Positions 1 through 54,390 of a DNA stretch of 64,000 nt are shown one piece after another; the stretch's first letter is position 1, and every line of letters starts with the position of its first letter. The position numbers were made by a program, and so were the translations under genes. A model generated the notes under the pieces. It did no database searches. It was not told the DNA's origin and saw only the letters and a program-made list of their open reading frames with translations. The DNA comes from a virus: the IMG/VR virus record IMGVR_UViG_3300035696_000035, positions 1 through 64,000 of that record. One strand, written 5' to 3'.

Positions 1-9
1 CATGCTCCG

Positions 10-3037: not shown

Positions 3038-3041
3038 GCTG

Positions 3042-5210: not shown

Positions 5211-6101
5211 ATGACTGTCGTCTTCGTCTACTCCAAGAGGAACCAGGAAGCGACCACCCTGGCATACTTCGACTACGTGCTGGCCGCGATGCAGGCCAAC
5301 GGCGCCCTGGTGCTGGAGGAGTCGAGGTTCATGGCGTCAGGCAAGGACATGCTGGTCCCACACGGTGACCGCCTCGTCAACTTCTACTGTGACAACCCAG
5401 CTGCGGTGTGGCAGCGGTGCCTGCCCCAGTTCAGATGGAACTACGCCATCGATGAGATCGCTCAACCCGACGGACGAGCCTACGCCACCAAGATCAAGCA
5501 GTGCAAGGAGAACGACTGCACCAAGATGGTCGTTACCTACATGTCACCCCGACACCTGCTCAACCTGCGCCAGGCGGGCATCTCCTACGTCGGCATGCCG
5601 TGCTGTCCCCCGAGGATCCGCACCCGTGTCTCCAAGCCCCGTGCCGTCGCCGCCTTTGGTTCCTACCACCCGACGACGTACCCTGAACGGACCCGCATCA
5701 AGGAAGCGTTGGTCAGGTCGTTTGGAGCGCAGCACGTCCATGAACACCTGAACCCACCCGCCACGGGGGAACGGTTCTACGAAGCGTTGGACGGTTACCA
5801 GATGGGCATCGTCGACCGTGCTGGCTTCCGCGACCGCTTCGTCAACAAGTACGTCGAGTTCGGGGCCTCACATGTGCTGCCCATCGGCGACTGCCCCAGC
5901 TACATGCCCCGTGACATGCGGGAAGCGATGGTCAACACCGAGGGCAAGAACGCCAAGTGGATCATCAGCGAGGTCAACCGCTTGCTGCACACACCACAGG
6001 AACTGATGCTACGCCAGGAGAACTACACTGAGGCGGTGTCGAAGAACTTCAACCTGCTGCAACACGCTGGCCGCGTTGTCCAGACGATCACGGCAGCCTG
6101 A
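5211..6101 (+). CDS. hypothetical protein, possible glycosyltransferase (CgeB/GT1-like C-terminus)
   Basis: 296-aa ORF; RFYEALDGYQMGIVD resembles GT1 E-x7-E region; weak. Confidence 0.4.
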   Translation: MTVVFVYSKRNQEATTLAYFDYVLAAMQANGALVLEESRFMASGKDMLVPHGDRLVNFYCDNPAAVWQRCLPQFRWNYAIDEIAQPDGRAYATKIKQCKENDCTKMVVTYMSPRHLLNLRQAGISYVGMPCCPPRIRTRVSKPRAVAAFGSYHPTTYPERTRIKEALVRSFGAQHVHEHLNPPATGERFYEALDGYQMGIVDRAGFRDRFVNKYVEFGASHVLPIGDCPSYMPRDMREAMVNTEGKNAKWIISEVNRLLHTPQELMLRQENYTEAVSKNFNLLQHAGRVVQTITAA

Positions 6102-16196: not shown

Positions 16197-16274
16197 TCAA
16201 CAAGCCGGAAGCCGCTGCCATCCAATCCCGGGTGGCAGCGGCTTTCGCACATCTGAAGAAAGAGAGTCCCACAA

Positions 16275-29084: not shown

Positions 29085-29696
29085 TTGAGAAGCCAACAGA
29101 TGCAGCAGTTCGTCACTCCCGATGAGAACCATGGGTGTGAACACCTTTTCGTCTACCGTGAGCACCGGTGCAGCCAGACCCCAAACGTCCTGACGGCGTT
29201 GGACCAGCTGAGCGATGCCATCAAGGACGACCCGGCGAAGACTATCATCGAGGTGGGTACCCTTTTCGGCGCCTTCACCCGGATCCTACAGGACCATGAC
29301 ATCAGCGCCGCCGCTGCGATCCACACCTTCGATGTCGTTGTCACGATGCCCAAGGTCGTCGGTGTCACCCACCACCTGGGCAACGTCTTCGGGCACCAAC
29401 TGGCGACAGTGAGGTCGCTCATCGAGGCTCCAGGCCGGTGTCTGGTCTTCTGCGACGGCGGGGATAAGGAACGCGAGGTCAACACCTTCAGCGACTTCCT
29501 CAAGCCCGGTGACATCATCATGTGCCACGACTACGCTCGAGACCCAAAGTTGGCTGGAAGCGAAGCGTATGGGAAGTGGCCCAGCTACGAGAGCTCCTAC
29601 GCCAACATGGAGGTCGCCCTGGCTCGAAACAACTGCGTGCCCTTCATGGAAATCCAGATGCAACGTGCCGCCTGGGGCTGTTTCATCAGAGGCTAG
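29085..29696 (+). CDS. putative class-I SAM-dependent O-methyltransferase (CmcI/TylF-like)
   Basis: KTIIEVGTLFGAFTRIL resembles CmcI-family glycine-rich SAM motif; DGGDKE acidic motif. Confidence 0.45.
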   Translation: MRSQQMQQFVTPDENHGCEHLFVYREHRCSQTPNVLTALDQLSDAIKDDPAKTIIEVGTLFGAFTRILQDHDISAAAAIHTFDVVVTMPKVVGVTHHLGNVFGHQLATVRSLIEAPGRCLVFCDGGDKEREVNTFSDFLKPGDIIMCHDYARDPKLAGSEAYGKWPSYESSYANMEVALARNNCVPFMEIQMQRAAWGCFIRG

Positions 29697-31575: not shown

Positions 31576-31845
31576 TCAGTGACGCCAGGTCACTCGGCCC
31601 TTGGTAACGTCATAGGGTGACACCTCGATCGTTACGTTGTCTCCTGGTAGCAGCCGGATCCTGTTGATCCGCAGCTTGCCTGACAGCGTACAGACGACGG
31701 TGTTGCCCATTGTCGTCTTCACCCGGAACAGCGTTCCGGGCATTGCTTCCTCAACGCGGCCCTCGAACTCGAGGCGGTCTTCCCGTACCTCCTGCTCGGT
31801 TGTAGACCCTTGCGCCTGGTTGACCCATCTCCGTCTCTTGCTCAT
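31576..31845 (-). CDS. infA: translation initiation factor IF-1 (S1-like OB fold) with about 24-aa N-terminal extension
   Basis: EFEGRVEEAMPGTLFRVKTTMGNTVVCTLSGKLRINRIRLLPGDNVTIEVSPYDVTKGRVTWR aligns along full length to bacterial IF1 ([50 protein letters not shown]). Confidence 0.75.
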   Translation of the reverse strand: MSKRRRWVNQAQGSTTEQEVREDRLEFEGRVEEAMPGTLFRVKTTMGNTVVCTLSGKLRINRIRLLPGDNVTIEVSPYDVTKGRVTWRH

Positions 31846-32108: not shown

Positions 32109-32498
32109 ATGGCGAAACAGCGGAAACATGTGTACGTTCCCATCCCGTGTAAGGGATGTAGACAAGAGTTCACTCCCAAGGCTTCGTGCCAGAAGTTCTG
32201 CGTCATATGCATCCCCAACAAGAAGGCTCAGGGGCGTCGCCAGATCTACGGCCTCACGCAGCCTGAGTTTGAGAGGATGTTGCAAGAGCAAGACGGGAAG
32301 TGCTTCTTTTGCAGACGCGATTTCGCCGCAATGTTCAACGGCAAGTTTTCTCCGATCTGCGTTGACCATGACCATCAGACGAACCGCGTACGAGGTTTGC
32401 TGTGTCGGAAGTGTAACATGCTCTTGGGCTGGTTGGAGCTGTGCCCTCCCGGCATCCTGCGAAAGATCGAGAGCTACCTCAGTCATCCGTGTATCTGA
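32109..32498 (+). CDS. endonuclease VII-like (HNH-type) nuclease
   Basis: VDHDHQTNRVRGLLCRKCNMLLG core; CxxC pairs at N-terminus. Confidence 0.7.
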   Translation: MAKQRKHVYVPIPCKGCRQEFTPKASCQKFCVICIPNKKAQGRRQIYGLTQPEFERMLQEQDGKCFFCRRDFAAMFNGKFSPICVDHDHQTNRVRGLLCRKCNMLLGWLELCPPGILRKIESYLSHPCI

Positions 32499-32930: not shown

Positions 32931-33188
32931 TTGGAGGTGAGTGCCCCTGACTTGCTGCCTGGAGACCTCATCAGGATCACGGGCGTCTTCAACGTGTCAG
33001 GAAGCCCCGTCCTCGCCAAGGGCCAGGAAGCGTTGGTGATCTCAACGCCTGGCGTTTTTCCTGACCAACGAGAGGCGTTGCTCCTTACAGACGGTCGTTT
33101 GGTCACCATCGCTGACTGGTGGCTGCGAGCGAACTGCGACGTGTTGAACGACCCCACACCTGGTCGCTCCCGGCCAGGCCACGTCTGA
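32931..33188 (+). CDS. family-A paralog
   Basis: LLPGDLIRITG..ALVIST.. Confidence 0.45.
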   Translation: MEVSAPDLLPGDLIRITGVFNVSGSPVLAKGQEALVISTPGVFPDQREALLLTDGRLVTIADWWLRANCDVLNDPTPGRSRPGHV

Positions 33189-33199: not shown

Positions 33200-33988
33200 A
33201 TGCCTGGTCCTTTCGCTGCCTTCACCATCACACGCAACGAAGCTCTGTTCTTGCCGCTATGGTGCCAGTACTACTCGACGGTGTTCGGCGAAGAGAATTG
33301 CTACATCATCGACAACGACACCACCGACGGATCAGTGGAGACAGTCAAGCAACGATTCCCGAGCATCAACGTCGAGCAGCAACACCGTGAAGCGGAACAC
33401 GACACCCGGTGGTTGCTTGAGGTGGTCCAGCGGAAGCAACGTCAACTGTTGGCATCACACAAGGTCGTTGTCTTTGCGGAAACTGATGAGTTCCTGTTGG
33501 CAAAGCCAGGAGGCAAGTACAAGGACCTCCATGATGTGTGTGAACAGTTGTTGGTTGATCCTCACCGCAACTGGATCCAAGCTCAAGGTTGGCAGTGCAT
33601 GCAAGCACCTGACGAGCCAGCGATCACTGTGGTGAGGGGCGAGCCGGCGTTGAAGGACCGAGCAACCGTCCAACAGCACGAACAGTACTGCAAGACGCTG
33701 GTCAGCAAGGTCCCGTTGTCATGGGTCGGAGGCTTTCACTGGCGAGACATCGGGAATGGCCGAGGCGACAAGAACCCCAGCTCCATCGACTCTGACTTGG
33801 CATTGTTGCACCTGTGGACGTTGGATGCTGAGGCGTTCATGGAACGTCGTCGTAACAGGATGCAGAAGTGGGGCCAACTCGAGAAGTGGCCCGACATGTG
33901 GACGATGTTCAAGGATCAAGAGAACAGCTGCAGGCTGCATGCATCTATGCCTACTCCCGAGGAGTGGAGAGAGCTGTTGGTCTGGTGA
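33200..33988 (+). CDS. putative glycosyltransferase (GT-A fold; paralog of 35778..36569)
   Basis: Trimmed to MPGPFAAFTITRNE; IDNDTTDGSVE DxD-type motif; shares AFTITRNE/TTDGSVE/DLALLH blocks with 35778..36569. Confidence 0.55.
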   Translation: MPGPFAAFTITRNEALFLPLWCQYYSTVFGEENCYIIDNDTTDGSVETVKQRFPSINVEQQHREAEHDTRWLLEVVQRKQRQLLASHKVVVFAETDEFLLAKPGGKYKDLHDVCEQLLVDPHRNWIQAQGWQCMQAPDEPAITVVRGEPALKDRATVQQHEQYCKTLVSKVPLSWVGGFHWRDIGNGRGDKNPSSIDSDLALLHLWTLDAEAFMERRRNRMQKWGQLEKWPDMWTMFKDQENSCRLHASMPTPEEWRELLVW

Positions 33989-35091
33989 TGCTGCCGTACG
34001 ATTACCTCGTCGTCGGTGCGGGTCTTTTCGGAGCCACCTTTGCTTGGCATGCCGTCCAGCGCGGCAAGCGGGTGCTGGTCATCGACAAGCGAGATCACAT
34101 CGCCGGCAACGTCTACACCAAGCAACAGGAAGGCATCCACGTCCACACCTACGGCCCTCACATCTTCCACACCAGCGACCATGAGGTCTGGGCCTTCGTC
34201 AACAAGTTTGCCAGCTTCCACCGCTACGTCCACCACGTCAAGGCCCGCAACGGTGACCGGGTCTTCTCGTTGCCCATCAACCTGATGACAATGTACCAGT
34301 TGTGGGGCGTCACCAGCCCGAGTGAGGCCGAGGCCAAGCTCGCTGCGGTGCGGGTCCCGTGCGATCGCCCGCAGAACATGGAGGACTGGGCGCTGTCCCA
34401 GGTCGGGCCCGAGCTGTACGAGCTGCTGTTCAAGGGCTACACCACCAAGCAGTGGGGGCACCCGCCCAACGAGCTGCCCGCTTCGATCCTGAAGCGGCTA
34501 CCCATCCGCCTGTCATGGGACGACGACTACTTCACCGACACCTGGCAGGGGATTCCCGCCGGGGGCTACACCCGGATTGTCGAGCAGCTGCTGGAGGGCT
34601 CAGAAGTCCGCCTGCGGGTCGATTACCTGGCCGACAGGCAAGCGCTAGACGCCCTGGCACCGACGGTGGTCTACACCGGTCCCATCGACGCGTACTTCGG
34701 CTACTCACTCGGGCAGCTGGAATACCGGACGATGTCGTTCGACACTCAAGTGCTCGACGTACCCGACTACCAGGGCTGCGCCCAGCTGAACTGGACGGGC
34801 ACGGAAGTGCCGTGGACCCGCACCGTCGAGCACAAGCACTTCGAGATGGTCAACGTGCCCAAGACTGTCGTCACCTGGGAGACGCCCTCAGCTTGGCAAC
34901 CCGGTAGCGAACCCTACTACCCGGTGTGTGATGCCAAGAACAACGCGCTCTACGTTGAGTACAAGCAGATGGCTGACCAGCTCCCAAACGTCAGGTTCGG
35001 CGGGCGCCTCGGCACCTACAAGTACTACGACATGCACCAGGTCATCGCCCAAGCATTGCACATGTGCCGAAAGGAGGGTCTGCTTGCCTGA
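33988..35091 (+). CDS. glf: UDP-galactopyranose mutase
   Basis: Start in TGATG overlap; YDYLVVGAGLFGA FAD motif; near-colinear similarity to bacterial Glf (HIFHT, KQWG, GIPAGGYT, YTGPIDAYF, EHKHF, YYPVNDAKN, GRLGTYKYYDMHQVI). Confidence 0.85.
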   Translation: MLPYDYLVVGAGLFGATFAWHAVQRGKRVLVIDKRDHIAGNVYTKQQEGIHVHTYGPHIFHTSDHEVWAFVNKFASFHRYVHHVKARNGDRVFSLPINLMTMYQLWGVTSPSEAEAKLAAVRVPCDRPQNMEDWALSQVGPELYELLFKGYTTKQWGHPPNELPASILKRLPIRLSWDDDYFTDTWQGIPAGGYTRIVEQLLEGSEVRLRVDYLADRQALDALAPTVVYTGPIDAYFGYSLGQLEYRTMSFDTQVLDVPDYQGCAQLNWTGTEVPWTRTVEHKHFEMVNVPKTVVTWETPSAWQPGSEPYYPVCDAKNNALYVEYKQMADQLPNVRFGGRLGTYKYYDMHQVIAQALHMCRKEGLLA

Positions 35092-35788
35092 CATCATTGC
35101 ATCGTTCCTGCTGCCGACCCGGGGTCGTCCCGATCGTCTAGTCCAGAGCATCCAATCGATTCACACTCGTAACGGCAGCATCAAGCGTTGGGATGACACC
35201 GACATCCCGAACTACGAGATCCTGATCCGGGCAGACGTTGATGACAAGCCGACGTGCGACCTGGTCAAGCCATGGGTCAACGACATCTATTGCCGGGTCA
35301 CCCTCGGACCCAGGCACCGCGGCTACCTCGACCTGCACCTGATGGTGAACCAGCTCGCGGTCCGTGCTCGAGGCGAGTTCCTGGTGTTGTGGAACGACGA
35401 TGCCCTGATGCAGACGGAAAACTGGGACGACGTGTTGAAGCGACACCTTGCTGACCCGCCACGCATCTACCATCCCACCTCAGCCGGGACCAACCGCAAC
35501 ATCTTCCCGATCGTCAGGCGTAGCATCTACGGAGCTATGGGCCGCTTCAGCGAGAGCGCTCTCAACGACTTCTACGTGTGGACGCTGGCCAAGCGGTTGG
35601 GCATCAACACCCACATTGACATCGACATCAAGCACGACCATCCTCAGGTCGGCGGCACCAACATCGACCAGACCTACCTCGATGCAGCCGCCGCATGTGG
35701 TATCGTCAAGCACGACGACAAGGATCCTCGGATCCTAGCGTGCCTGGCTGAGGACGAGGCCAAGATCCGAACGTTGCTCAATAGGTGA
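35085..35788 (+). CDS. family-2 glycosyltransferase
   Basis: TTG start after GAAAGGAGGG RBS; LLPTRGRPDRL (GT2 PTYNR-type) and ADVDDK DxD. Confidence 0.6.
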
Positions 35789-36569
35789 GCAGCGACCGCC
35801 AGTGATCGGGCACCGGCGTCTCAGGACCGACGGCATGGGGATCACCCTCGTTGACCCATGGGGCTTTGTGAGTCCTGAAGTACTCGCTTGCGGTCGCCTT
35901 GTTGAGGTCCAGGAACCTGCCGCTGTGTCGATTCACGTACTCGTCAATGTCAACGCGCCAGGCATGAAGCAACGCTAGATCGACATCGATGGGTTCATCA
36001 ACCTGCTTGACTCCGGCGTCGAAGAAGTTGTGGAAGCCCTTCTGGTACACTATCGGTTTCTTGGTGATCAACGTTTTGTCGTACGTTGGCAGCAACCACA
36101 TCGAATTGCGAGCTTCCAGGAGGCTCGCGCCGGGCTCGCGTCTGACAGCCGGCTCCGTATCGATCTGCTGGACAACGTTCCAACCCTGAGCCCGACGCCT
36201 TGTCGAGGTTGGATCATCATTGAACTGTTGACAGTAGTCGAGCAGACCTGCATACCTGGTGCTCGGGATCAGGTACTCGTCGGTCTCGCTGAAGACAACA
36301 ACGCGGTAACGTTGAAGCAGCTCACGTTGGAACGCTTCGACAGTCCCCTTCAAGAACAGGCTGACATGCGCCACAGGTGAGTCTCGAAAGACGAAGTTGA
36401 CGGTTGGGTGCAACGCTCTTGCCTCTTCAACGCTGCCGTCCGTCGTCGAGTTGTTGATGACATAGACGTCCTCTGGCGGGAAGACCTTCGTCATGTAGTT
36501 GAGCCACACCCGGAGAAACAGGGGCTCGTTGCGCGTGATGGTGAAGGCAGCGAAGTCGTGTTCTCCCAT
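35778..36569 (-). CDS. putative glycosyltransferase (paralog of 33200..33988)
   Basis: AFTITRNEPLFL, INNSTTDGSVEE, DLALLHAW conserved blocks. Confidence 0.55.
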   Translation of the reverse strand: MGEHDFAAFTITRNEPLFLRVWLNYMTKVFPPEDVYVINNSTTDGSVEEARALHPTVNFVFRDSPVAHVSLFLKGTVEAFQRELLQRYRVVVFSETDEYLIPSTRYAGLLDYCQQFNDDPTSTRRRAQGWNVVQQIDTEPAVRREPGASLLEARNSMWLLPTYDKTLITKKPIVYQKGFHNFFDAGVKQVDEPIDVDLALLHAWRVDIDEYVNRHSGRFLDLNKATASEYFRTHKAPWVNEGDPHAVGPETPVPDHWRSLLTY

Positions 36570-36604: not shown

Positions 36605-36949
36605 ATGTGGACTGAGCGCCCGAAGTGGACCGACGGGCTCATCCTGGCGACAGCGGTGGGTCTGGGCCTGAGCGTGATAGTTAGCATCGGGCGCGAACCT
36701 GACCAACCTCAGGCCACCGCGCCCACCTGCCAGGAAGTCGTCGTGATCGTTCACCAAGGGGAGGAGATCCTGGCCCAGTGCCCGCAAGGGTCCTGGATAG
36801 ACATCGTTGACAACAACGTCGTCTGCAGGTGTGGGCCCCGTAGAGAGCCGCTGTGGTTCGAACACATCCAGCCCGTTCCTCCAGCTCCAGAGCAACACCG
36901 GACAGACCGCCCCTTCAAATTCGACGGCAAGCAAGGGACCCCGATCTGA
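36605..36949 (+). CDS. hypothetical membrane-anchored protein
   Basis: N-terminal hydrophobic segment LILATAVGLGLSVIVSI; Cys pairs. Confidence 0.35.
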   Translation: MWTERPKWTDGLILATAVGLGLSVIVSIGREPDQPQATAPTCQEVVVIVHQGEEILAQCPQGSWIDIVDNNVVCRCGPRREPLWFEHIQPVPPAPEQHRTDRPFKFDGKQGTPI

Positions 36950-36955
36950 CCATCA

Positions 36956-37207
36956 ATGCCTCCACTTGTACTCCTGATCGTAGCCTTCGTCATCGCTGTC
37001 ACTCTTCTTCCCCGTCTCTGGGTGCTACGCCACAAGCATGAGACACGGGAGCTGCCGTTCATTGCCGACATCACGCATGGCATCTGTCCACGCTGCGGTG
37101 ACACCCACCCCGAAGCACAGGTCATCCGGGACAAGCCCGCCAGCTTCTGGCAACACTTCAGCTGTCGCTGCGGGTTCGCGGTGAAAGCGCATATCAAGTC
37201 TGACTGA
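36956..37207 (+). CDS. small membrane protein with zinc-ribbon
   Basis: LVLLIVAFVIAVTLL TM helix; CPRCG..x..CRCG. Confidence 0.4.
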   Translation: MPPLVLLIVAFVIAVTLLPRLWVLRHKHETRELPFIADITHGICPRCGDTHPEAQVIRDKPASFWQHFSCRCGFAVKAHIKSD

Positions 37208-37252
37208 CATTCAGCGTTGGGTGGAGTAAGGTGGGAAGAGGAGGCTCTTCTC

Positions 37253-37933
37253 ATGAGACGTTTTGTTCCCGCCCTCGCCGCAATGGCGCTCGTATGCGGT
37301 TGCGCAGCAAGCGCGCCGCCCCCGCAACCCGTTCCCCCGAAGGCCGCAATCGTGGCCTTGGCTTCGCCGCCCGCACAGCTGGCCCCGAAGCCCACCACCA
37401 ACCACATCGTCCACAAGGATTGGGACATCACCGTCCCCGCTGACTGGACCGTCAGCGACGAGGATGAGACGGGCGTCAAGGCTGTTCGAGCTGCCGACAA
37501 GGCGAACCACGTGCTGCCCGCGCTGGTCGAGGTTGCCAGCCAAGACGTCGACCCCACCATCGATGCCAAGCAGAACGCGGTGATGCTGTCAGTGATGTGC
37601 GTCGCTGCCGCTTCACAGGACAACGAGGACAACATCGACGGTGTCCGTCGCGGGTTCATCGTCTACGAGGGTCGCATCGGCTCGTTGACACAGGTCGGCT
37701 TCAAGAACGGCAGCTTCACCGGTTGCATCGGCCTCCTCGATGAGACAGCACATCGGTCGTACCTGATCGTTGCAGTTGCCCCACAGGACGACGGTCACCT
37801 GATGGCCACGATCTCGAAGACGTTCCACCTGCACAACCCGGCGCCGCCGCTGTCGAAGGACGATGACGACGACTCCACGCCGCCGGCACCCGATCCGAAG
37901 GCGGTACCGAAGCACACTTCGCTGAGCCTGTGA
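37253..37933 (+). CDS. putative lipoprotein
   Basis: Trimmed to MRRFVPALAAMALVCGCAAS after GAGGAGG RBS; lipobox-like LVCGC. Confidence 0.5.
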   Translation: MRRFVPALAAMALVCGCAASAPPPQPVPPKAAIVALASPPAQLAPKPTTNHIVHKDWDITVPADWTVSDEDETGVKAVRAADKANHVLPALVEVASQDVDPTIDAKQNAVMLSVMCVAAASQDNEDNIDGVRRGFIVYEGRIGSLTQVGFKNGSFTGCIGLLDETAHRSYLIVAVAPQDDGHLMATISKTFHLHNPAPPLSKDDDDDSTPPAPDPKAVPKHTSLSL

Positions 37934-39594: not shown

Positions 39595-40031
39595 CCCTTG
39601 GCCGGATGGAGTTGGGCCAGTTCGCGGAGGACATCGACGGCCTGCTGCTCGAACTGGCCGACGATCTGTGCTGCCACGTACGCCTTTCGGTACAGCCACA
39701 GCGCCCTGATCAGCTGGGTCCCGATGACGATCGCGAGAGCGAACCAGCCGCTGGCACCGCAGAGCCAGGCAACCAGCGACAGCACCGACGCGCTGATGAC
39801 GCCGCCCGTTGCAGTGCCCCAGGCGTTGCGTCGCAACAGGTGGGAGTGGTAGACGTCACGGTAGAGTGCCAAGGCCAGGCCGAAGCTCGCCGCTTCCTCC
39901 TCTTTCACCTGGTGCCAGTCGACCTTGCTGGCCTCGTCAGTCATCAGGGTGTCAACGTCAACGTCGACATCCGCAGACTGGATCGTCACTTCACTGCTGT
40001 CCATTGTCTTGCTCCTTGCTGGGCTCGTCAT
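39591..40031 (-). CDS. membrane protein
   Basis: Two predicted TM helices (VISASVLSLVAWLCGASGWFALAIVIG). Confidence 0.4.
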   Translation of the reverse strand: MTSPARSKTMDSSEVTIQSADVDVDVDTLMTDEASKVDWHQVKEEEAASFGLALALYRDVYHSHLLRRNAWGTATGGVISASVLSLVAWLCGASGWFALAIVIGTQLIRALWLYRKAYVAAQIVGQFEQQAVDVLRELAQLHPAKG

Positions 40032-41631
40032 AGACGACCGCGTCGAGTGACAGGAACGTCGTTGCCACGCTGGCGGCGTGCTTGAGGGCTGACCGGGTCA
40101 CCTTGACCGGGTCGATGACTCCAGCCTGGACCAGGTCCTCGTACTCCCCCGTTGCCGCGTTGTACCCGCGGCTGTCGGAGCGCTCACCCCGTTCGAGCTC
40201 AGCAACGACGACGTCAGCGCTGGTGCCTGCGTTCTGGACGATGCGCTGGAGGGGCGACAAGCACGCCTTGAACACAGCCGTCGCTCCATGGACCTCGTCG
40301 GGGTCGACACCCTCGGCCTTGCCGACGGCGCTGCGGACCTTGGTCACTGCGTTGAACAACGCCATGCCACCGCCCGGGACCAGGCCCTCTTCGGTTGCTG
40401 CCTTCGTTGCGTTGAGAGCGTCCTCGATGCGGAACTTCCGCTCCTGCATCTCGATCTCGGTGGCACCACCGACGCGGATCACTGCGACGCCGTTGGCCAG
40501 CTTCGCTGCCCGCATCCGGAGCTTCGTCAGCTCGTCTTGAGCCAGGGTCACGTCAGTGGCCTGGACACGTAGCTGTTCCACGTGCTGGGCGACCTTCTCC
40601 TTGGTTGCGCCCCCAGCGACGATGGTCGTCACCTTGGCGTCCGACGTCAGCTTCCTGACCTGGCCCAGGTGGGTGCCCTGGATGTCCTTCAGGCTTAGTC
40701 CCGTCGCGCTGGAGATGAGCGTGGCCCCTGTCAGCACGCAGATGTCCTGCAGCAGCTCCTGACGGTGCTGGCCGTAGCCCGGTGCCTTGACGGCGACGAC
40801 GGGCAGCTTGCCCTGGGCCCGGTTGATGACGAGGCCCGTCATGGCGTCACCCTCGAAGTCTTCAGCGATGATCAGCAGCGGCCGCCGTGCCTGGGCCACC
40901 TTCTCGAGGGCAGGCACGATGTCAGCGAAGGAGGACAGCTTCTTGTCGGTGACCAGCACCAGAGCTTCCTCGTAGACAGCCCGCATCCGCTCCGGGTCGG
41001 TGATGAAGTACGGGCTGACGTAGCCCCTGTCGATCTGCATGCCCTCGACGACCTCCATCGAGGTCGACATGCCCTTGGCATCTTCGACGGTGATGATCCC
41101 GTCACGTCCCACCCGCTCCATGGCATCGGCGATCAGCTTGCCGATGACAGCATCACCGTTCGCTGAGATGGTGCCGACCTGGGCGACTTCCTCTGAGGTC
41201 TGGACAGCCTTGGCCGATCGCTTGAGCTCCTCGAGGACCAACTCCACAGTGGTGTTGATGCCCCTGCACACTGCCAGCGGGCTCATCCCCGCCTCGACCA
41301 GCTTCATGCCCTCGCGGACCAGCGCCTGGGTCAGGACGCTGGCGGTCGTGGTGCCGTCACCAGCGACGTCGTTGGTCTGGCTGGCTGCCTCACGGACCAG
41401 GTCTGCCCCCATCCTTTCGACTGGATCACGGAGCTTGATCGACTTGGACACCGTCACCCCGTCCTTGGTGACCAAGGGTGCCTGCCCCTGTCGCTGGATC
41501 AGCACCGTCTTGCCCTTCGGGCCGAGGGTGCATCCGATGGCGTCAGAAGCCTTGTCGAGGCCTGACAGGAGCTGCTTGCGAGCTTCGCTGCTGAAGATGA
41601 TCTGTGTCGTGGATTCGCCGGGCATGTTCAT
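39991..41631 (-). CDS. groEL: chaperonin GroEL (Cpn60)
   Basis: 546 aa; TLGPKGKTV, GDGTTTA, VEGMQIDRGY, AVKAPGYG, GGG(MALFNAV) hallmark motifs; full-length colinear with GroEL. Confidence 0.9.
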   Translation of the reverse strand: MNMPGESTTQIIFSSEARKQLLSGLDKASDAIGCTLGPKGKTVLIQRQGQAPLVTKDGVTVSKSIKLRDPVERMGADLVREAASQTNDVAGDGTTTASVLTQALVREGMKLVEAGMSPLAVCRGINTTVELVLEELKRSAKAVQTSEEVAQVGTISANGDAVIGKLIADAMERVGRDGIITVEDAKGMSTSMEVVEGMQIDRGYVSPYFITDPERMRAVYEEALVLVTDKKLSSFADIVPALEKVAQARRPLLIIAEDFEGDAMTGLVINRAQGKLPVVAVKAPGYGQHRQELLQDICVLTGATLISSATGLSLKDIQGTHLGQVRKLTSDAKVTTIVAGGATKEKVAQHVEQLRVQATDVTLAQDELTKLRMRAAKLANGVAVIRVGGATEIEMQERKFRIEDALNATKAATEEGLVPGGGMALFNAVTKVRSAVGKAEGVDPDEVHGATAVFKACLSPLQRIVQNAGTSADVVVAELERGERSDSRGYNAATGEYEDLVQAGVIDPVKVTRSALKHAASVATTFLSLDAVVYDEPSKEQDNGQQ

Positions 41632-44498: not shown

Positions 44499-44679
44499 TG
44501 GTCAGCCTCCTTGTGGGAACATGAGCGCTGACTGTCACAGTGGTGACCCCATCGGGCCCGGAGAGCTTTGCAGCCTCCATGAGGAGTCGCATCAAGTTCA
44601 TCATGGTTGAGCGCACGTCGCGGCCGCCGACCTTGACAGTCGTCGTCTTCACGCAATCGAACTTTTCTGGAGTGCTCAA
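44473..44679 (-). CDS. hypothetical protein
   Basis: 68-aa ORF, ATGA-coupled to NRDE gene. Confidence 0.35.
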   Translation of the reverse strand: MSTPEKFDCVKTTTVKVGGRDVRSTMMNLMRLLMEAAKLSGPDGVTTVTVSAHVPTRRLTSAIPDPTD

Positions 44680-45500
44680 CCGATGACCTCGATGTCTTCG
44701 TCCTTCAGCTCAATGGGCTCCAAGTCACTGAAGTCCAGATGCAGCAAGCGCCCCGCTAGTGTCAACGGCGTGTGTTGGCATGCAGGGCCCTCCTTGTACC
44801 AGTACTCCACAACCCCTTGATTGGACACGGTGACCAGGCTGGTGCTCCTTGTCCCGAAGGCAAACTCGTCAGCATGGACGCACAGGGCCTGGAACGGGTC
44901 GTCCTTCGCCTTCCTGTTTGAGAAGTGAGAGGCCAGCGTGACGAGCAGTCGTGTCTTGACTTCCTCGAACGGGACGGGAGGGTCATCGATGAGGCTCTCT
45001 GTCATCCGCTTGGCCCAGTCGGTCTTCTCGGCGTACCTGGTACCCCAACAGTCGTTGCTGATGACGTTGATGCCTTTGGGCATGGGCAACATCTCGATGT
45101 GGTTGCCTGGCAACACTCGGGTCAGGAACATCGCACCGGGCCTGCCAAAGACCAGGTTGAAGGGGTTGTAGTCTTCAGGGTCGATGGATGCCAGCACTCG
45201 AGCGGCAATGGTGTGGTTGCCCGCTCCGAGCACCCGGAGGACGACGTCGCCCCGAGACTTCTTGTGTTCGTCGTGGTGTTGGTCGTCCTGATTGGTGATG
45301 CCAACGAACCACCCCGTCTGGTCAACGCCCATCCAAGTGCCACCACGTTCGTCATCGTGGGGCATGATGAGGCTGATCAGGTTGGCCTTCTGTGTCACGT
45401 CAGGTGGGCGTGACTTGCGGTCGTACCTCTCGTCGCGGTTAGCGGCGACGATTAGTGGGTACCCCTCCACCTGCTCGTTGAGGATGATGAGCGTGCACAC
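44676..45500 (-). CDS. NRDE-family protein (TANGO2/DUF833-like, N-terminal Cys)
   Basis: MCTLIIL..PLIVAANRDERYDR matches NRDE-family N-terminus. Confidence 0.7.
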   Translation of the reverse strand: MCTLIILNEQVEGYPLIVAANRDERYDRKSRPPDVTQKANLISLIMPHDDERGGTWMGVDQTGWFVGITNQDDQHHDEHKKSRGDVVLRVLGAGNHTIAARVLASIDPEDYNPFNLVFGRPGAMFLTRVLPGNHIEMLPMPKGINVISNDCWGTRYAEKTDWAKRMTESLIDDPPVPFEEVKTRLLVTLASHFSNRKAKDDPFQALCVHADEFAFGTRSTSLVTVSNQGVVEYWYKEGPACQHTPLTLAGRLLHLDFSDLEPIELKDEDIEVIG

Positions 45501-45503
45501 CGC

Positions 45504-46088
45504 TCACCTGTCGTCGTCTTCTTCGTCCTCATCCTCGTCGTCGTCGCTCTCCTCGTACTCATCGTTGGGAGTGAAGACGGGAGCGTCAGCTCCCGGGTGG
45601 AGCTGGATCTCGCACCAGACCAGCTGCCCGTCGGAGATGATGAAGTGAGAGGTCTTGTAGTTGTTGATGTCTTCACCGTCGTCATTGACCTCCCCGTAGG
45701 TGACGCTTCCCTCGGCCTGGCCGCGGAGGAGCGGGACCACCTTGTTGACGAAGATCGGGAAGAAGGTGTTGGCCGCGGTCTCGTCGTAGCCGCTGTCATC
45801 GTCGTGCCAGTCGAGGCAGTTGATCTCCAGGCCGGCCACCGACTTCTTGACAACCTTGGCACCGCACTCTCGACAGAACTTGGCGTTACCGTAGCTGGTG
45901 GTGCCGCAGGCACACTTGACCTTCTCTTTGGTCTGCGAGTTGATCTTGTCCTCCAGCTCACGGAGGAAGCAGTTCTCGGGAAGGTCCCCGTCGTACTTGT
46001 CGAGGAGCTTCTTGGCATCGCGCGGGTCGATGTTGAGGGTTGAACGCTCAGGCCTCAGGAACGTGACGCTGTCGATTCGAGTGCTCAT
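45504..46088 (-). CDS. hypothetical zinc-ribbon protein with poly-acidic tail
   Basis: CACG..x..CRECG ribbon; C-terminal EESDDDEDEDEEDDD. Confidence 0.4.
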   Translation of the reverse strand: MSTRIDSVTFLRPERSTLNIDPRDAKKLLDKYDGDLPENCFLRELEDKINSQTKEKVKCACGTTSYGNAKFCRECGAKVVKKSVAGLEINCLDWHDDDSGYDETAANTFFPIFVNKVVPLLRGQAEGSVTYGEVNDDGEDINNYKTSHFIISDGQLVWCEIQLHPGADAPVFTPNDEYEESDDDEDEDEEDDDR

Positions 46089-50603: not shown

Positions 50604-50683
50604 GACATCACCTTACCACAGGTGTGCGCCAGGGTACATGTACTTGTGCCCGAAACGTATAGCTATGTTCTAAGGGGTGTGTT
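50604..50683. promoter_or_regulatory. divergent intergenic region with two perfect palindromes
   Basis: GTACATGTAC (10 bp) and ATAGCTAT (8 bp) between Fpg/Nei (-) and protease (+) genes. Confidence 0.3.
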
Positions 50684-52401: not shown

Positions 52402-52622
52402 TGGTCTTCACCGCACCCCGGGCACGTTTCGTGCTTGAGGTCTTCAGCCTTGCATTCCTCGGGAGCGCTCCATTCTTCCTGGACGCCCCACACGTGGACA
52501 TGCCGCCCGTTCTTGTCCCAGATGACGATGAGGGTGCCATCAACGACAGCGTCGACGAGCCCGTAGGATCCCGGGCGGTCCTTGTGAGCGACTAGGTCTG
52601 CCATCCCGAAAGTTTCAGACAT
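52377..52622 (-). CDS. hypothetical protein (family-A-like core, C-terminal Cys cluster)
   Basis: Trimmed to MSETFGMADLVAHK; TLIVIWD..; CPGCGEDQCWCG. Confidence 0.3.
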   Translation of the reverse strand: MSETFGMADLVAHKDRPGSYGLVDAVVDGTLIVIWDKNGRHVHVWGVQEEWSAPEECKAEDLKHETCPGCGEDQCWCGVGR

Positions 52623-53700
52623 ACTTGAATCCGGTGAGCATCCGGCCCGCCGCCTCCAGGTCTTCTTGTGTCTTGACCCCGAAGTACCGCGCGTCTCGTG
52701 GCACTCTGACGAACTGGGTCGGGAACTCCTCAGTGAGCTGCTGCAGCAGCCGCTCATGCTGGATGACAAGGCGGTGACCCACCTGCTTGCGGGCTCGGTG
52801 CCAGCGCCACTCGATGGGTGCCTTCAGCGCTGCGATGTCGATGATCATTGAGTTGGTGTTGTGCCACCGAGCCTGGTCGGCGAAACCTGCGGGCAGCCGC
52901 CAGTCTTCAGCGATCTGGAGCTTGTTGTTGACGTATGCAACGACGCCGCCTTTGTCGCCGCGTTGGCGTTCAATCACCTCGCAAGTGACGGTAGCACCCT
53001 CTCGCTTGTGAAAGCCCAGCAACCCAGGGTGTGGTGAACCCATCACGTTGTCGACGTTGACGATGTAGGCGTACTTCACACCTGGGTTGTCAGCGATGAC
53101 CCCGCTCTCAACCAGCGCCGGGCCCACGTCACCGTGCCCCAGCGGGTACAGGTCGGGTACCCCGTGAGCGATCCACTCCAACCGGTTGTCCGGTGTCAAG
53201 CGGTACCCCTCGAACTGCTCGAAGATGTGGTAGCTCGCCTTGGGCGGTCGCGCCAGCTTCTCTAGGTGGAGAGCGATCGACTTCAGATTGCCGACTGACG
53301 TCATGATCCAGACGGGCATGTTGCCACCCTGCATCACCTTCCACGCCAGCATGCTGGTGTCGACTCCGGGGATCTTGGCGAAGACCTTGGGCATCCCCAT
53401 CCGGGTACCCGCACCACCTGCCAGCAGGACGAAGGCGACCTCGCCCCTGCTGATCATCTCTTCGCCGACCTGTTCGTCAGCAACGGTGATCTCTTCGTAG
53501 TTGTTGAGCTTGTCGTCGTCCGGAAAGTCCGGGTGGTACATCGCCGGATCGGCATCCTGACGAGTCGTCATCTTGACGAGCTCCTCGTCGGTGAGTGCAC
53601 CTGAACGGTGAACCCGAACCTGAAACTCGGGCAGGACCTGGGTCAGCTCTTCACGTAGTGAGCGAACGAATCCGGGTTCAGTCTTCACCAGCCACCTCTT
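52615..53700 (-). CDS. UTP--glucose-1-phosphate uridylyltransferase family (UGPase/UDP-sugar pyrophosphorylase type)
   Basis: LLAGGAGTRMG nucleotide-binding loop, PLGHGDV motif; true start uncertain (Arg/Ser-rich 5' extension of track ORF discarded). Confidence 0.65.
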   Translation of the reverse strand, partial: KRWLVKTEPGFVRSLREELTQVLPEFQVRVHRSGALTDEELVKMTTRQDADPAMYHPDFPDDDKLNNYEEITVADEQVGEEMISRGEVAFVLLAGGAGTRMGMPKVFAKIPGVDTSMLAWKVMQGGNMPVWIMTSVGNLKSIALHLEKLARPPKASYHIFEQFEGYRLTPDNRLEWIAHGVPDLYPLGHGDVGPALVESGVIADNPGVKYAYIVNVDNVMGSPHPGLLGFHKREGATVTCEVIERQRGDKGGVVAYVNNKLQIAEDWRLPAGFADQARWHNTNSMIIDIAALKAPIEWRWHRARKQVGHRLVIQHERLLQQLTEEFPTQFVRVPRDARYFGVKTQEDLEAAGRMLTGFKYV

Positions 53701-54187
53701 GTTCAAACCAACTCTCGTCGACGGGTATGTCAGGGAACGGCCACCAAGCGGGTGCGGCCGCCCTGGGTGCCCACTTGGCGAAACGTGCTTTCTCACCGAT
53801 GTAGTACGCGCGGTACGCCTTGACGGGGTCAGCATCGCGGTACTGCTCGGGCATCGCCTGAGCAAAGGGAGTCAGCCCCAGGTCAGGCAGGTCAGGTTGT
53901 TCGAGCGAGGCGATGATGTGTTCGGTCTTGTGGACCTTGCCGTAACGACGAGTGTACTCGTTGCAGAGCTCACAAGCGTGCCGCAACAACCACTCATAGT
54001 TCGACAACGAGGCACGGACCCACTTGCCACACGGGTGGTTGACGTGAGTGTGTTTGTATCGCGTCGTCCCGGGCGGGAATGCAGTGACCAACAGTTGGGC
54101 ACTCTCCAACAGCATCTTGACCACGTGCTTGTTGCACTGGTCTCGTGCTGCCTTGAGCGGGTCCTGGTCTAGGACGAAGATGTTCAT
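53678..54187 (-). CDS. hypothetical protein
   Basis: 169-aa ORF; MNIFVLDQDPLKAARDQCNKHVVKM N-terminus. Confidence 0.45.
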   Translation of the reverse strand: MNIFVLDQDPLKAARDQCNKHVVKMLLESAQLLVTAFPPGTTRYKHTHVNHPCGKWVRASLSNYEWLLRHACELCNEYTRRYGKVHKTEHIIASLEQPDLPDLGLTPFAQAMPEQYRDADPVKAYRAYYIGEKARFAKWAPRAAAPAWWPFPDIPVDESWFEQEVAGED

Positions 54188-54390
54188 CAGTTATTGAACT
54201 GTCGGTGCTTGACGAAGATCATGCAGCGTTCCTGATGCTTCTCGTTGAGAAGCGCCAGCGTTCGCTCCAGGTGACCCTTGGTGAAGATCAAGACGTAACC
54301 ATCGTCGACTGTTGCGACGGCCACACCTTCCTTGTCGGCCATGTCGACCAGGTCCTCGGGACCCAGGTCCTTCTTGACGGGTTCACTCAT
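54187..54390 (-). CDS. hypothetical small protein
   Basis: 67-aa ORF, coupled. Confidence 0.35.
   Translation of the reverse strand: MSEPVKKDLGPEDLVDMADKEGVAVATVDDGYVLIFTKGHLERTLALLNEKHQERCMIFVKHRQFNN

What the first reader, a model, noticed from the sequence alone, without database searches (positions are those of the whole stretch)
33200..36569. UDP-galactofuranose glycosylation island: two paralogous GT-A glycosyltransferases flanking glf and a GT2
The order is GT (33200-33988), UDP-galactopyranose mutase (glf, 33988-35091, TGATG-coupled), GT2 (35085-35788 with strong RBS), then a convergent GT paralog (35778-36569).

Galactofuranose is absent from many hosts and strongly immunogenic. A virus-encoded Galf pathway would decorate virion, host envelope or receptors (superinfection exclusion or capsid glycosylation, as in some giant viruses and mycobacteriophages).
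Basis: partly seen in the sequence, partly recalled or inferred. Interest (0 to 1): 0.65.

Follow-up and report, generated by a model that had tools for sequence, protein, structure and literature searches.

The report
Huge-phage galactofuranose glycosylation gene cassette
A soil "huge phage" carries a conserved four-gene cassette that makes the unusual sugar donor UDP-galactofuranose and three enzymes to attach sugars to an unidentified target; virus-encoded cassettes of this general kind are already known, so this is a moderately interesting new variant.

Summary
Four genes are present: GT-A glycosyltransferase GTa (33200-33988), glf (33988-35091), a GT2 (it starts at TTG 35084, not 35085) and the convergent paralog GTb (35778-36569, 38% identical to GTa).

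Glf passes the curated UDP-galactopyranose mutase cut-off and keeps the E. coli active-site residues.

The element is viral. The window is colinear with a 369-kb contig that IMG/VR lists as viral, and the core glf-GT2-GTb cassette sits at the same locus in four other large phage-like contigs. Its conservation (52-87% identity) is about that of the flanking chaperonin, IF-1 and phosphoesterase genes. GTa is an extra, older paralog found in only two of the genomes.

GTa and GTb belong to an uncharacterised but broad GT-A family. Its closest bacterial members sit next to GT75 NDP-pyranose mutases, which suggests furanosyltransferases.

The acceptor is not identified. I favour phage fibre or virion proteins, because family members lie next to fibre-like genes in three related phages. 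Host envelope glycans and DNA (as proposed for Rhizobium phage RL38J1) remain live rivals.

Phage glf genes are already known, so this is a new variant of a known kind.

The parts
32931..33188 (+). 85-aa gene of unknown function that co-varies with GTa (accessory pair)
   Evidence: It has a homolog (55% identity) only in L010/L046, the only other genome that also has GTa. It is absent from L001, L008 and L009. No Pfam or PHROG hit.
33200..33988 (+). GTa: accessory GT-A glycosyltransferase of the uncharacterised 'A1' family (PF13704-type N-terminus)
33988..35091 (+). glf: UDP-galactopyranose mutase
   Evidence: PF03275 E=6e-73. TIGR00031 equivalog 379 bits, above the 303.75 cut-off. E=8e-124 and 49% identity to E. 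coli UGM 1I8T. H56, Y151, W156, R170, Y181, R247, N268, R278, E298, Y311, R340, Y346 and D348 are all conserved.
35071..35077 (+). Shine-Dalgarno AAGGAGG for GT2, lying inside the 3' end of glf
   Evidence: Read directly from the sequence. It lies 6 nt upstream of TTG 35084.
35084..35788 (+). GT2-family GT-A glycosyltransferase, translationally coupled to glf; candidate first user of UDP-Galf
35778..36569 (-). GTb: core A1-family GT-A glycosyltransferase, convergent with GT2 and overlapping it by 11 nt
   Evidence: 38% identical to GTa, E=3e-53. Orthologs are 57-72% identical in L001, L008, L009 and L010 at the same position.
52615..53865 (-). Divergent UDPGP-type sugar-1-phosphate uridylyltransferase; possible UDP-hexose supply, not shown to be linked
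   Evidence: PF01704 E=4.6e-23. Arabidopsis UGPase 2ICX E=2e-10. The 71%-identical relative L013 aligns only from residue 58, so the true start is probably near 53694.
5211..6101 (+). About 300-aa protein of unknown function whose homologs sit beside the A1 glycosyltransferase in related phages
   Evidence: 42-43% identical to L008 10631-11554 (inside that phage's cassette) and to L016 9105-10004 (between a Gly_rich_2 protein and the A1 GT). No Pfam, PHROG, NCBIfam or PDB hit.

Best explanation
This is a vertically inherited glycosylation cassette of a lineage of soil huge phages (genomes of about 325-370 kb).

Shown by sequence:
- Glf is an intact flavin-dependent UDP-galactopyranose mutase.
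- Three soluble, acidic, DXD-type GT-A glycosyltransferases are encoded with it. GT2 is translationally coupled to glf. GTb is convergent with GT2 and overlaps it.

Inferred:
- In the infected cell, Glf converts host UDP-Galp to UDP-Galf. A phage UDPGP-like enzyme may help supply the UDP-hexose.
- GT2 and the A1-family enzyme(s) then build a short Galf-containing glycan in the cytoplasm.
- The A1 family (GTa and GTb) is probably a furanosyltransferase family.

Favoured acceptor (the weakest step): phage structural proteins, in particular fibre or adhesin-like proteins. The virion would then carry a Galf glycan. GTa, where present, would add an extra sugar and diversify that glycan.
For: Enzyme identity:
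- Glf passes the curated equivalog cut-off and keeps all the E. coli UGM residues I checked. I recalled those positions as the active-site set from the literature.
- It has His and Lys where C. jejuni UNGM has Arg59 and Arg168 (alignments; the roles of these residues are from memory).
- All three GTs give confident GT-A models with invariant acidic motifs.

Viral origin and core status:
- The window is colinear with the 369-kb IMG/VR contig UViG_3300005529_000001.
- The cassette occupies the same locus in five distinct contigs: 369, 325, 72, 50 and 41 kb.
- Identity to relatives is 58-87% for Glf, 52-82% for GT2 and 57-72% for GTb. GroEL is 64-77%. That pattern fits a function intrinsic to the phage rather than a sporadic moron.

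Furanose link:
- The best-scoring bacterial A1 members sit in an operon of A1 GT, then a GT75/RGP NDP-pyranose mutase, then an epimerase. This holds for L014, L015 and L017, and an RGP gene also adjoins the A1 gene in L020 and L033.
- The L017 RGP protein matches MtdL at 1.7e-22.
- GT75 enzymes supply NDP-furanosyl donors (PMC9937993).
- All five RGP-linked loci fall in the clade that is sister to the phage clade.

Fibre link:
- In L008, a Gly_rich_2 protein and a roughly 300-aa gene are inserted inside the cassette.
- In L016 the operon is Gly_rich_2, then the roughly 300-aa gene, then the A1 GT.
- In L005-7 the A1 GT is convergent with a collagen-like tail fibre, phrog_6320 at 1e-27.

Other points:
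- The best PDB fold match of GTa is the peptide S-glycosyltransferase SunS, and its best viral matches are giant-virus GTs.
- None of the GTs has a TM segment, and none of the cassette genes or the flanking ORFs I scanned hit a flippase, polymerase or initiating-transferase family.
- Virion O-glycosylation by phage GTs is established in mycobacteriophages (Freeman et al. 2023, as cited in PMC12619734).
Against: - In the window itself the cassette lies among non-structural genes (IF-1, endonuclease VII, chaperonin), not next to any recognisable virion gene.
- No Gly_rich_2 gene was found in the 64-kb window.
- The fibre adjacency comes from relatives, and in two of the three cases (L016 and L005) no glf lies within 10 kb.
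- Reading Gly_rich_2 as fibre- or adhesin-like rests on sequence character and on my memory of gp38-type polyglycine domains. It is not a tested homology (no PHROG or PDB hit).
- The top fold matches of GT2 are cell-wall glycopolymer enzymes: WrtF, RmlT and TarP.
- I found no report of Galf on a phage virion in the papers searched.
- The RGP linkage holds for only 5 of about 30 bacterial loci. The other neighbourhoods are heterogeneous.
Confidence: 0.37

Rival explanations
1. Host-envelope remodelling. The soluble GTs act at the cytoplasmic face on lipid-linked precursors of the host's O-antigen, capsule, EPS or teichoic acid and add Galf. This changes the cell surface during a long infection or pseudolysogeny, blocks superinfecting phages, or prevents progeny from re-adsorbing to the infected cell.
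For: - Galf is a typical bacterial surface-glycan sugar (general knowledge).
- In L017 the bacterial A1 GT operon adjoins a Wzm/Wzt ABC-type polysaccharide cluster.
- Fusions and neighbours of the A1 family are glycan-assembly types: Methyltransf_24, GT2 and GT8.
- Jumbo-phage GT clusters have been predicted to do exactly this (Iyer et al. 2021, PMC7824862).
- The genes transcribed divergently from GTb encode two TM proteins and a lipoprotein-like protein that are conserved in relatives.
- An EamA-type small transporter lies at 60118-60534.
Against: - The cassette is a fixed, well-conserved locus across diverged phages. Iyer et al. argue that surface-modification clusters are sporadic and polymorphic.
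- The cassette has no flippase, polymerase, initiating transferase or membrane anchor.
- The host is unknown, so it cannot be checked whether it has a suitable acceptor glycan.
Confidence: 0.3
2. DNA hypermodification. UDP-Galf is the donor for glycosylating a modified base (5hmC, 5hoC or 5hmU) in phage DNA to evade restriction, as proposed for glf in Rhizobium phage RL38J1 (Pootjesviridae).
For: - The RL38J1 precedent: glycosylated 5-hydroxycytosine with a base-proximal galactose, and a phage glf proposed as the UDP-Galf source (PMC13326640).
- GT-A-fold DNA glycosyltransferases exist and are abundant in phage metagenomes (bioRxiv 10.1101/2023.12.21.572611).
- Conservation like that of a core gene fits a DNA-protection role.
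- Only about 20% of the genome is visible, so base-modifying enzymes could lie elsewhere. In RL38J1, glf itself is far from the GT cluster.
Against: - Among about 70 scanned ORFs of the 64-kb window, none hits a ThyA-like hydroxylase or hydroxymethylase, a 5mYOX/TET, a C5-methyltransferase or a dNMP kinase. The precomputed Pfam calls for relatives' flanks show none either.
- The RL38J1, RB69 and DLP3 DNA GTs are all GT-B fold, whereas these are GT-A.
- There is no TAGT-type Pfam hit, and the phiRSL1 TAGT model matches GTa only weakly (TM 0.35, rank 29).
- All three GTs are acidic (pI 5.6-6.5, net charge -2 to -8), which is unusual for DNA-binding enzymes.
- The window Glf is only about 41% identical to the Pootjesviridae Glf proteins, so it is a separate acquisition.
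Confidence: 0.12
3. Some other acceptor. The cassette glycosylates host or phage cytoplasmic proteins or a small molecule (a glycocin-like peptide, a lipid or a metabolite), or it makes a free or secreted Galf oligosaccharide.
For: - The best fold match of GTa is SunS, a peptide glycosyltransferase.
- In L014 the A1 GT lies in a mixed cluster with ATP-grasp, PqqD and ScmC-like genes, which resembles peptide natural-product loci.
- Nothing in the data fixes the acceptor.
Against: - No precursor peptide or export gene is evident next to the cassette.
Confidence: 0.1
4. Not viral. The locus is a bacterial chromosomal or megaplasmid cell-wall gene cluster that has been binned as viral by mistake.
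For: - Cellular-type genes lie nearby: GroEL, IF-1, methionine aminopeptidase, Fpg and NUDIX.
- No capsid, terminase or tail gene lies inside the 64-kb window.
- There are no tRNAs.
Against: - The syntenic 369-kb relative is an IMG/VR UViG.
- Most genes are short ORFans with overlapping ends.
- Phage lysozyme, endonuclease VII and a 5'-3' exonuclease are present.
- In the GenBank phage collection, the MVP-like protein matches only the 462-735 kb 'uncultured phage' records.
- Relatives of 325-369 kb keep the same gene order and show no ribosomal or other chromosomal core operons in about 20-kb views.
Confidence: 0.04

Closest known systems
glf plus DNA glycosyltransferases of Pootjesviridae (Rhizobium phage RL38J1, P10VF, phiM9, Atu_ph04)
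   Same: Both are large lytic phages that encode their own UDP-galactopyranose mutase together with several glycosyltransferases.
   Different: - Their GTs are GT-B fold and cluster with a ThyA-type 5-hydroxy-dCMP synthase and a nucleotide kinase, and glf lies far from them.
- Here the GTs are GT-A, they abut glf directly, and no base-modifying enzyme is seen.
- The Glf proteins are only about 41% identical.
Mycobacteriophage virion O-glycosylation (Che8, Corndog, Myrna; Freeman et al. 2023, cited via PMC12619734)
   Same: Phage-encoded soluble glycosyltransferases that decorate structural proteins. This is the mechanism I favour here.
   Different: - Those phages are not reported, to my knowledge, to carry a nucleotide-sugar mutase or to use Galf.
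- Their genomes are 50-160 kb.
- No sequence relationship was tested beyond generic GT-A similarity.
- Glycosylation of the virion is unproven here.
Giant-virus glycosylation machinery (chlorovirus and mimivirus-type GTs)
   Same: A virus-autonomous supply of a sugar donor together with several GT-A enzymes. The best viral structural matches of GTa are Megaviridae, Fadolivirus and Klosneuvirus GTs.
   Different: Those viruses have eukaryotic hosts. Identities are 14-23% only. No glf is known to me in those systems.
Bacterial Galf surface-glycan loci (E. coli K-12 glf-wbbI, Klebsiella O1 glf-wbbO, mycobacterial glf-glfT1/glfT2)
   Different: There is no significant sequence similarity to any characterised GalfT, and no export or polymerisation genes. 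The genomic context is a phage.
Bacterial operon of A1-family GT, GT75 (RGP) NDP-pyranose mutase and epimerase (L014, L015, L017)
   Same: The same uncharacterised GT-A family sits next to a pyranose-to-furanose nucleotide-sugar mutase.
   Different: The mutase is the Mn-dependent GT75 type, not flavin-dependent UGM. The sugar is probably different (Araf, Fucf or L-Galf). The context is cellular. As far as I could find, this operon is itself uncharacterised.
Jumbo-cyanophage 'LPS/capsule' sugar clusters (Iyer et al. 2021)
   Same: Jumbo phages with paralogous GTs and nucleotide-sugar enzymes.
   Different: Those clusters are large (up to 15 genes), sporadic and polymorphic. They carry epimerases/dehydratases, kinases and nucleotidyltransferases but no glf. 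The cassette here is compact and stably inherited.

Membership tests
UDP-galactopyranose mutase (Glf/UGM; TIGR00031, PF03275) | Sequence scores above the curated equivalog / gathering cut-off | tested here: met
   TIGR00031 scores 379 bits against 303.75. PF03275 scores 245 bits against 26.3.
UDP-galactopyranose mutase (Glf/UGM; TIGR00031, PF03275) | N-terminal FAD-binding Rossmann motif (GxGxxG) | tested here: met
   VVGAGLFG at residues 8-15. PF13450 NAD_binding_8 gives 4.7e-22 over residues 8-74.
UDP-galactopyranose mutase (Glf/UGM; TIGR00031, PF03275) | Conserved substrate-binding and catalytic residues of E. coli UGM (R170, R278, Y151, Y181, Y311, Y346, W156, H56, E298, D348) | tested here: met
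   All are identical at the aligned positions (from the alignment). The roles of these residues are taken from the literature as I remember it.
UDP-galactopyranose mutase (Glf/UGM; TIGR00031, PF03275) | Catalyses UDP-Galp <-> UDP-Galf | not testable with these tools
   Needs an enzyme assay.
CAZy GT2-type GT-A glycosyltransferase (gene 35084-35788) | Pfam PF00535 match above the gathering score | tested here: met
   24.7 bits against 23.3, which is marginal. Supported by phrog_14945 at 7e-16. dbCAN/CAZy HMMs were not available.
CAZy GT2-type GT-A glycosyltransferase (gene 35084-35788) | GT-A fold with a DXD metal/nucleotide motif | tested here: met
Characterised galactofuranosyltransferases (GlfT1/GlfT2, WbbI, WbbO) | Sequence homology to a biochemically proven GalfT | tested here: not met
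Characterised galactofuranosyltransferases (GlfT1/GlfT2, WbbI, WbbO) | Genetic coupling to a UDP-Galf-forming mutase | tested here: met
   The glf stop overlaps the GT2 start in the window. The glf-GT2-A1 order is kept in five genomes.
A1 family (PF13704-like GT-A; proposed furanosyltransferases) | Full-length match to the family profile with invariant E14, D43, D96-E97, H180, H204 and D209 | tested here: met
   GTa and GTb score 1e-106 to 1e-114 against the family HMM, with the motifs shown. On Pfam PF13704, GTa is above the cut-off (38.2 against 27.5) and GTb is below it (21.3).
A1 family (PF13704-like GT-A; proposed furanosyltransferases) | Association with a pyranose-to-furanose NDP-sugar mutase | tested here: inconclusive
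   Glf is adjacent in 5 of 8 phage genomes. GT75/RGP is adjacent in 5 of about 30 bacterial loci, all in the clade sister to the phages. The remaining loci have no mutase within about 6 kb.
Phage DNA-glycosylation systems (T4 alpha/beta-GT, TAGT/JGT-like, 5hoC or 5hmC glycosylation clusters) | GT related to known DNA GTs (GT-B T4-like fold, or the TAGT GT-A family) | tested here: not met
   The folds are GT-A. There is no TAGT Pfam hit at E<=0.01. The phiRSL1 TAGT model matches at TM 0.35 only.
Phage DNA-glycosylation systems (T4 alpha/beta-GT, TAGT/JGT-like, 5hoC or 5hmC glycosylation clusters) | Clustering with a base-modifying enzyme (ThyA homolog, dCMP hydroxymethylase, 5mYOX/TET, C5-MT) and a dNMP kinase | tested here: inconclusive
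   None was found among about 70 scanned window ORFs or in the flanks of relatives. About 80% of the roughly 350-kb genome was not visible.
Seroconversion Gtr system (GtrA/GtrB/GtrC) | Membrane-bound bactoprenol GT, a GtrA flippase and a GT-C serotype-specific transferase | tested here: not met
   None of the GTs has a TM segment (maximum 19-residue hydropathy 0.8-1.04). There are no GtrA or GT-C Pfam hits.
Phage virion-glycosylation systems (mycobacteriophage type) | GT genes associated with structural genes, and glycan detected on capsid, tail or fibre proteins | tested here: inconclusive
   There is no structural neighbour in the window. A1 GTs are adjacent to Gly_rich_2 or collagen-like fibre genes in L008, L016 and L005. 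Glycan detection needs experiments.

The most novel reading that the evidence does not exclude
GTa and GTb represent a previously unrecognised family of furanosyltransferases. The family has been recruited next to two non-homologous pyranose-to-furanose mutases: flavin-dependent UGM in huge phages and Mn-dependent GT75 in bacteria. The huge phages would use it, together with a dedicated GT2, to coat their fibres or virions with galactofuranose. That would be the first Galf-glycosylated phage particle, with GTa gain and loss diversifying the glycan.
Probability: 0.22. Interest if true: 0.65.

Novelty: new variant of a known kind. Interest (0 to 1): 0.42.

Why it matters
Virus-encoded glycosylation determines how particles, DNA or infected cells are recognised by hosts, by competing phages and by immune systems.

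This cassette offers a compact, self-contained UDP-Galf module of three to four small soluble proteins. It comes from an uncultured huge-phage lineage and is conserved like a core function.

It also points to an uncharacterised, widespread GT-A family (about 3,000 cluster representatives) as candidate furanosyltransferases. Few families of such enzymes are known, and they are of interest as drug targets and glyco-engineering tools because Galf is absent from mammals.

The practical pay-off is modest until the acceptor is identified.

Tried and rejected
I corrected it to TTG 35084.
- A single-sequence search suggested the GTa family is extremely rare, with 9 hits. That was a sensitivity artefact: the exhaustive profile search found 2,974 cluster representatives.
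- I tested whether every A1-family gene sits next to a furanose mutase. It does not. Only 2 of 27 GTDB loci do, and a Pfam census of 112 neighbouring genes is heterogeneous. I reduced the claim to a clade-level association.
- I tested whether GTa is a recent tandem duplicate of GTb and rejected it. GTa is basal in the phage clade and only 38% identical to GTb.
- I tested for kinship with the published 462-735 kb huge phages (LR756500-3). Only the MVP gene and a weak AAA match are shared in 42 kb, and those genomes are 24% GC.
- The 'Gp23 (weak)' Pfam flags in relatives are on roughly 200-aa proteins, so I did not use them as capsid evidence.
- The promoter/terminator scan of the island was uninformative, and there are no tRNAs.
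- An impression that small 'PGDL'-motif genes around the island are paralogs was not supported by BLAST.
- GTa and GTb have no match in GenBank phages or in IMG/VR by close-relative scan.
- Look-ups intended to extend the contig beyond the window failed.
- The Freeman et al. 2023 paper could not be read.
- PDB sequence searches for the Gly_rich_2 protein, the roughly 300-aa family and ORF 6088-6852 gave nothing.

Full report
**1. What is there**

The region contains four genes, supported by strong third-position GC bias.

- GTa runs from ATG 33200 to 33988 (262 aa). Its start is fixed by the upstream gene, which ends at 33188, and by the conserved N-terminus FAAFTI(T/V)RNE shared with homologs.
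- glf runs from 33988 to 35091 and overlaps the GTa stop in TGATG.
The real start is TTG 35084, 6 nt after AAGGAGG at 35071-35077 and 8 nt before the end of glf.
- GTb (35778-36569, minus strand) converges on GT2 with an 11-nt overlap.
- Pfam assigns PF13704 to GTa (2e-9) and GTb (4e-4, below the cut-off), PF03275/GLF to glf (6e-73), and PF00535 to GT2 (2.6e-5, just above the cut-off).
- GTa and GTb are full-length paralogs (38% identity, E=3e-53). GT2 is unrelated to them at sequence level.

**2. Glf looks functional**

- It exceeds the NCBIfam equivalog threshold for UDP-galactopyranose mutase (379 against 303.75 bits).
- It matches E. coli UGM 1I8T at 8e-124 and 49% identity.
- Thirteen positions are identical to E. 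coli UGM: H56, Y151, W156, R170, Y181, R247, N268, R278, E298, Y311, R340, Y346 and D348. I recalled these as the active-site set from the UGM literature.
- It has His and Lys where C. jejuni UNGM has Arg59 and Arg168 (alignment). From what I remember of that enzyme, this argues for UDP-Gal rather than UDP-GalNAc as substrate.

**3. The element is a huge phage, not a chromosome**

- The window is part of a 72-kb JGI contig.
- From about 22 kb to 47 kb it is gene-for-gene colinear with a 369.5-kb contig. Shared genes include ADP-ribosylglycohydrolase, TANGO2, AAA, GroEL, the cassette, IF-1 and a metallophosphoesterase. IMG/VR holds that contig as UViG_3300005529_000001.
- The same neighbourhood occurs in contigs of 325 kb, 50 kb and 41 kb.
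- Most genes are short ORFans with overlapping ends.
- Recognisable genes include phage lysozyme, endonuclease VII and a 5'-3' exonuclease. There is also a major-vault-protein homolog that, within the GenBank phage collection, matches only the 462-735 kb 'uncultured phage' records. Kinship with those phages is limited to that gene.

**4. Comparative anatomy of the cassette**

Local HMM searches show a core of glf, then GT2, then a convergent A1-family GT (the GTb ortholog) in all five genomes.

| Gene | Identity to the window protein |
|---|---|
| Glf | 58-87% |
| GT2 | 52-82% |
| GTb | 57-72% |
| GroEL (flank) | 64-77% |
| Metallophosphoesterase (flank) | 52-79% |

The cassette is therefore inherited vertically and is under purifying selection comparable to that on neighbouring conserved genes.

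- GTa, together with the 85-aa gene upstream of it, is present only in the window and in the 41-kb contig. There it is only 50% identical.
- In an NJ tree GTa branches at the base of the phage clade, so it is an old accessory paralog rather than a recent duplicate.
- In the 325-kb phage, two genes are inserted between GT2 and the A1 GT: a 313-aa Gly_rich_2 (PF21722) protein and a 307-aa protein.
- The cassette is rare. Only these five genomes were found across IMG/VR, JGI metagenomes, GTDB genomes and the 5.8-billion-protein collection.

**5. The glycosyltransferases**

- Both AlphaFold models are confident (pLDDT 88-89).
- The best viral structural matches of GTa are giant-virus GTs.
- All three enzymes are acidic and lack TM segments.
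- The A1 family is not rare. A profile search of 1.84 billion representatives finds 2,974 clusters, 661 of them at E<=1e-30. Longer members are fused to Methyltransf_24/TylF, GT2 or GT8 domains, which is typical of glycan-assembly enzymes.

**6. A lead on donor specificity**

- The best-scoring bacterial A1 members lie in a three-gene operon: A1 GT, then RGP (PF03214, CAZy GT75), then an NAD-dependent epimerase. This occurs on 0.3-1 Mb contigs. In one case the operon is next to a Wzm/Wzt ABC polysaccharide cluster.
- The RGP protein matches the NDP-pyranose mutase MtdL (1.7e-22) and a UDP-arabinopyranose mutase (6e-16).
- GT75 enzymes make NDP-furanose donors for glycosyltransferases (PMC9937993).
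- The same GT family therefore sits beside two unrelated pyranose-to-furanose mutases: GT75 in bacteria and UGM in these phages.
- The association is not universal. Only 2 of 27 GTDB loci have an adjacent RGP gene, and other neighbourhoods are heterogeneous. All five RGP-linked loci do fall in the clade sister to the phage proteins.
- I treat 'A1 = furanosyltransferases' as a reasonable but unproven inference.
- GT2 is always directly downstream of glf and, in the window, translationally coupled to it, so it is an equally good candidate first user of UDP-Galf.

**7. The acceptor**

Three options were weighed.

*(a) Phage structural or fibre proteins.*
- In three related phages an A1 GT sits beside fibre-like genes: inside the cassette in L008; in an operon of Gly_rich_2, a roughly 300-aa gene and the A1 GT in L016; and convergent with a collagen-like tail fibre (phrog_6320, 1e-27) in L005-7.
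- The roughly 300-aa family has a window member at 5211-6101.
- This fits the core-like conservation, the lack of membrane components and the established precedent of mycobacteriophage virion glycosylation.
- Against it, the window cassette has no structural neighbour, and two of the three fibre contexts lack glf nearby.

*(b) Host envelope glycans.*
- This is supported by the fold neighbours of GT2, by the bacterial contexts of A1, by the prediction of Iyer et al. for jumbo phages, and by conserved membrane and lipoprotein-like genes transcribed divergently from GTb.
- The stable, compact architecture without any export gene argues against it.

*(c) DNA.*
- glf in Rhizobium phage RL38J1 is proposed to feed glycosylation of 5-hydroxycytosine.
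- Here the GTs are GT-A rather than GT-B, they are acidic, they are not TAGT-like, and no base-modifying enzyme is seen in the window or the flanks.
- Only about a fifth of the genome is visible, so this option remains open.

I put (a) at about 0.37, (b) at about 0.30 and (c) at about 0.12.

**8. Novelty**

- Phage glf genes are annotated in about 90 GenBank phage records, from Rhizobium, Agrobacterium, Sinorhizobium, Aeromonas and other phages.
- Virus-encoded GT clusters are well known.
- What is new here is the specific architecture: glf, then GT2, then a convergent A1 GT, with or without GTa. It is fixed in an uncultured soil huge-phage lineage, it involves an uncharacterised GT-A family, and that family is linked to furanose-forming mutases.
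- This amounts to a new variant of a known kind, of moderate interest.

Noticed in passing
window 13020-19902 (+): Three consecutive genes: a 1058-aa major-vault-protein homolog (MVP_shoulder 7e-29, Vault_3, Vault repeat), a 640-aa SPFH/Band 7 protein and an AAA ATPase. The same trio is conserved in relative L016. In GenBank phages the MVP matches only the 462-735 kb 'uncultured phage' genomes LR756500-3 (42% identity). Viral MVPs have been reported once (bioRxiv 10.1101/2023.11.10.566534).
   Followed up: partly
window 20520-21263, 31576-31845, 39991-41631: Phage-borne copies of methionine aminopeptidase (M24, 4e-51), translation initiation factor IF-1 (7e-21) and GroEL-type chaperonin (1e-70). 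IF-1 and GroEL are conserved at the same positions in all the relatives I inspected.
   Followed up: partly
window 44676-46999 (-): A TANGO2-family protein (9e-28) and an ADP-ribosylglycohydrolase (5e-33, 83% identical in the 369-kb relative), separated by a 194-aa ORFan. This may be an anti-defence or ADP-ribosylation-reversal module.
   Followed up: no
window 49707-55219 and 57752-58600: A cluster of DNA-repair genes: Fpg/Nei glycosylase, an HhH-GPD glycosylase (51534-51971), a T4 endonuclease V-like pyrimidine-dimer glycosylase (53678-54187), a NUDIX/MutT-like hydrolase (54587-55219) and a 5'-3' exonuclease. Together they resemble a phage-encoded oxidative- and UV-damage repair set.
   Followed up: no
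window 52615-53865 (-): A divergent eukaryote-type UDPGP sugar-1-phosphate uridylyltransferase (PF01704 5e-23; Arabidopsis UGPase 2e-10). It could supply UDP-hexose for the Galf cassette. A 71%-identical copy lies on a separate 25-kb IMG/VR contig (L013). The ORF start is probably near 53694.
   Followed up: partly
window 60118-60534 (-) and 60539-60916 (-): A 138-aa EamA/DMT-type small membrane transporter (3.5e-17), next to a 125-aa ORF with no family hit. Its size recalls ArnE/ArnF-type lipid-linked-sugar flippase subunits. No link to the cassette has been shown.
   Followed up: no
window 32109-32498 (+) and about 23540-23833: Two endonuclease VII-family genes, 39% identical to each other. 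Neither has a counterpart in the otherwise colinear relatives. They look like mobile (homing-type) insertions, one of them lying just upstream of the cassette.
   Followed up: partly
window 36605-37933 (+): Three genes transcribed divergently from GTb, with an intergenic gap of only 35 bp. They encode a 114-aa TM protein, an 83-aa TM protein with a CxxC...CxC zinc-ribbon-like motif, and a 238-aa protein with a lipoprotein-like signal (MRRFVPALAAMALVCGC) and a Pro-rich linker. All three have homologs in L001 and L010, and one or two of them in L008 and L009.
   Followed up: partly
window 6088-6852 (-): A 254-aa ORF convergent with and overlapping the roughly 300-aa gene at 5211-6101. It has a 'VVCDSDTVVV' DXD-like motif that suggests another GT-A glycosyltransferase, but it has no Pfam, PHROG, NCBIfam or PDB hit.
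   Followed up: partly
window 58881-59849 (-): A 322-aa protein that matches a PHROG transposase family (phrog_10081, 4e-23) but has no Pfam hit.
   Followed up: no
window 55666-56910 (-): A 414-aa protein with an N-terminal phage lysozyme domain (residues 13-141, 3e-34) and about 270 further residues with no assigned domain.
   Followed up: no
L003 8695-10828 and window 29085-29696: In relative L003 the A1 GT follows an FtsJ-like and a Methyltransf_24 methyltransferase. The window keeps a 37%-identical homolog of the first at 29085-29696, with only faint methyltransferase signal. Methyltransf_24 is also the commonest fusion partner and neighbour of the A1 family, which hints at methylated sugars.
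   Followed up: partly
window 1-4000: GC content is higher here (0.65-0.67) than in the rest of the window (about 0.60-0.62), with strongly negative AT skew. The cause was not examined.
   Followed up: no
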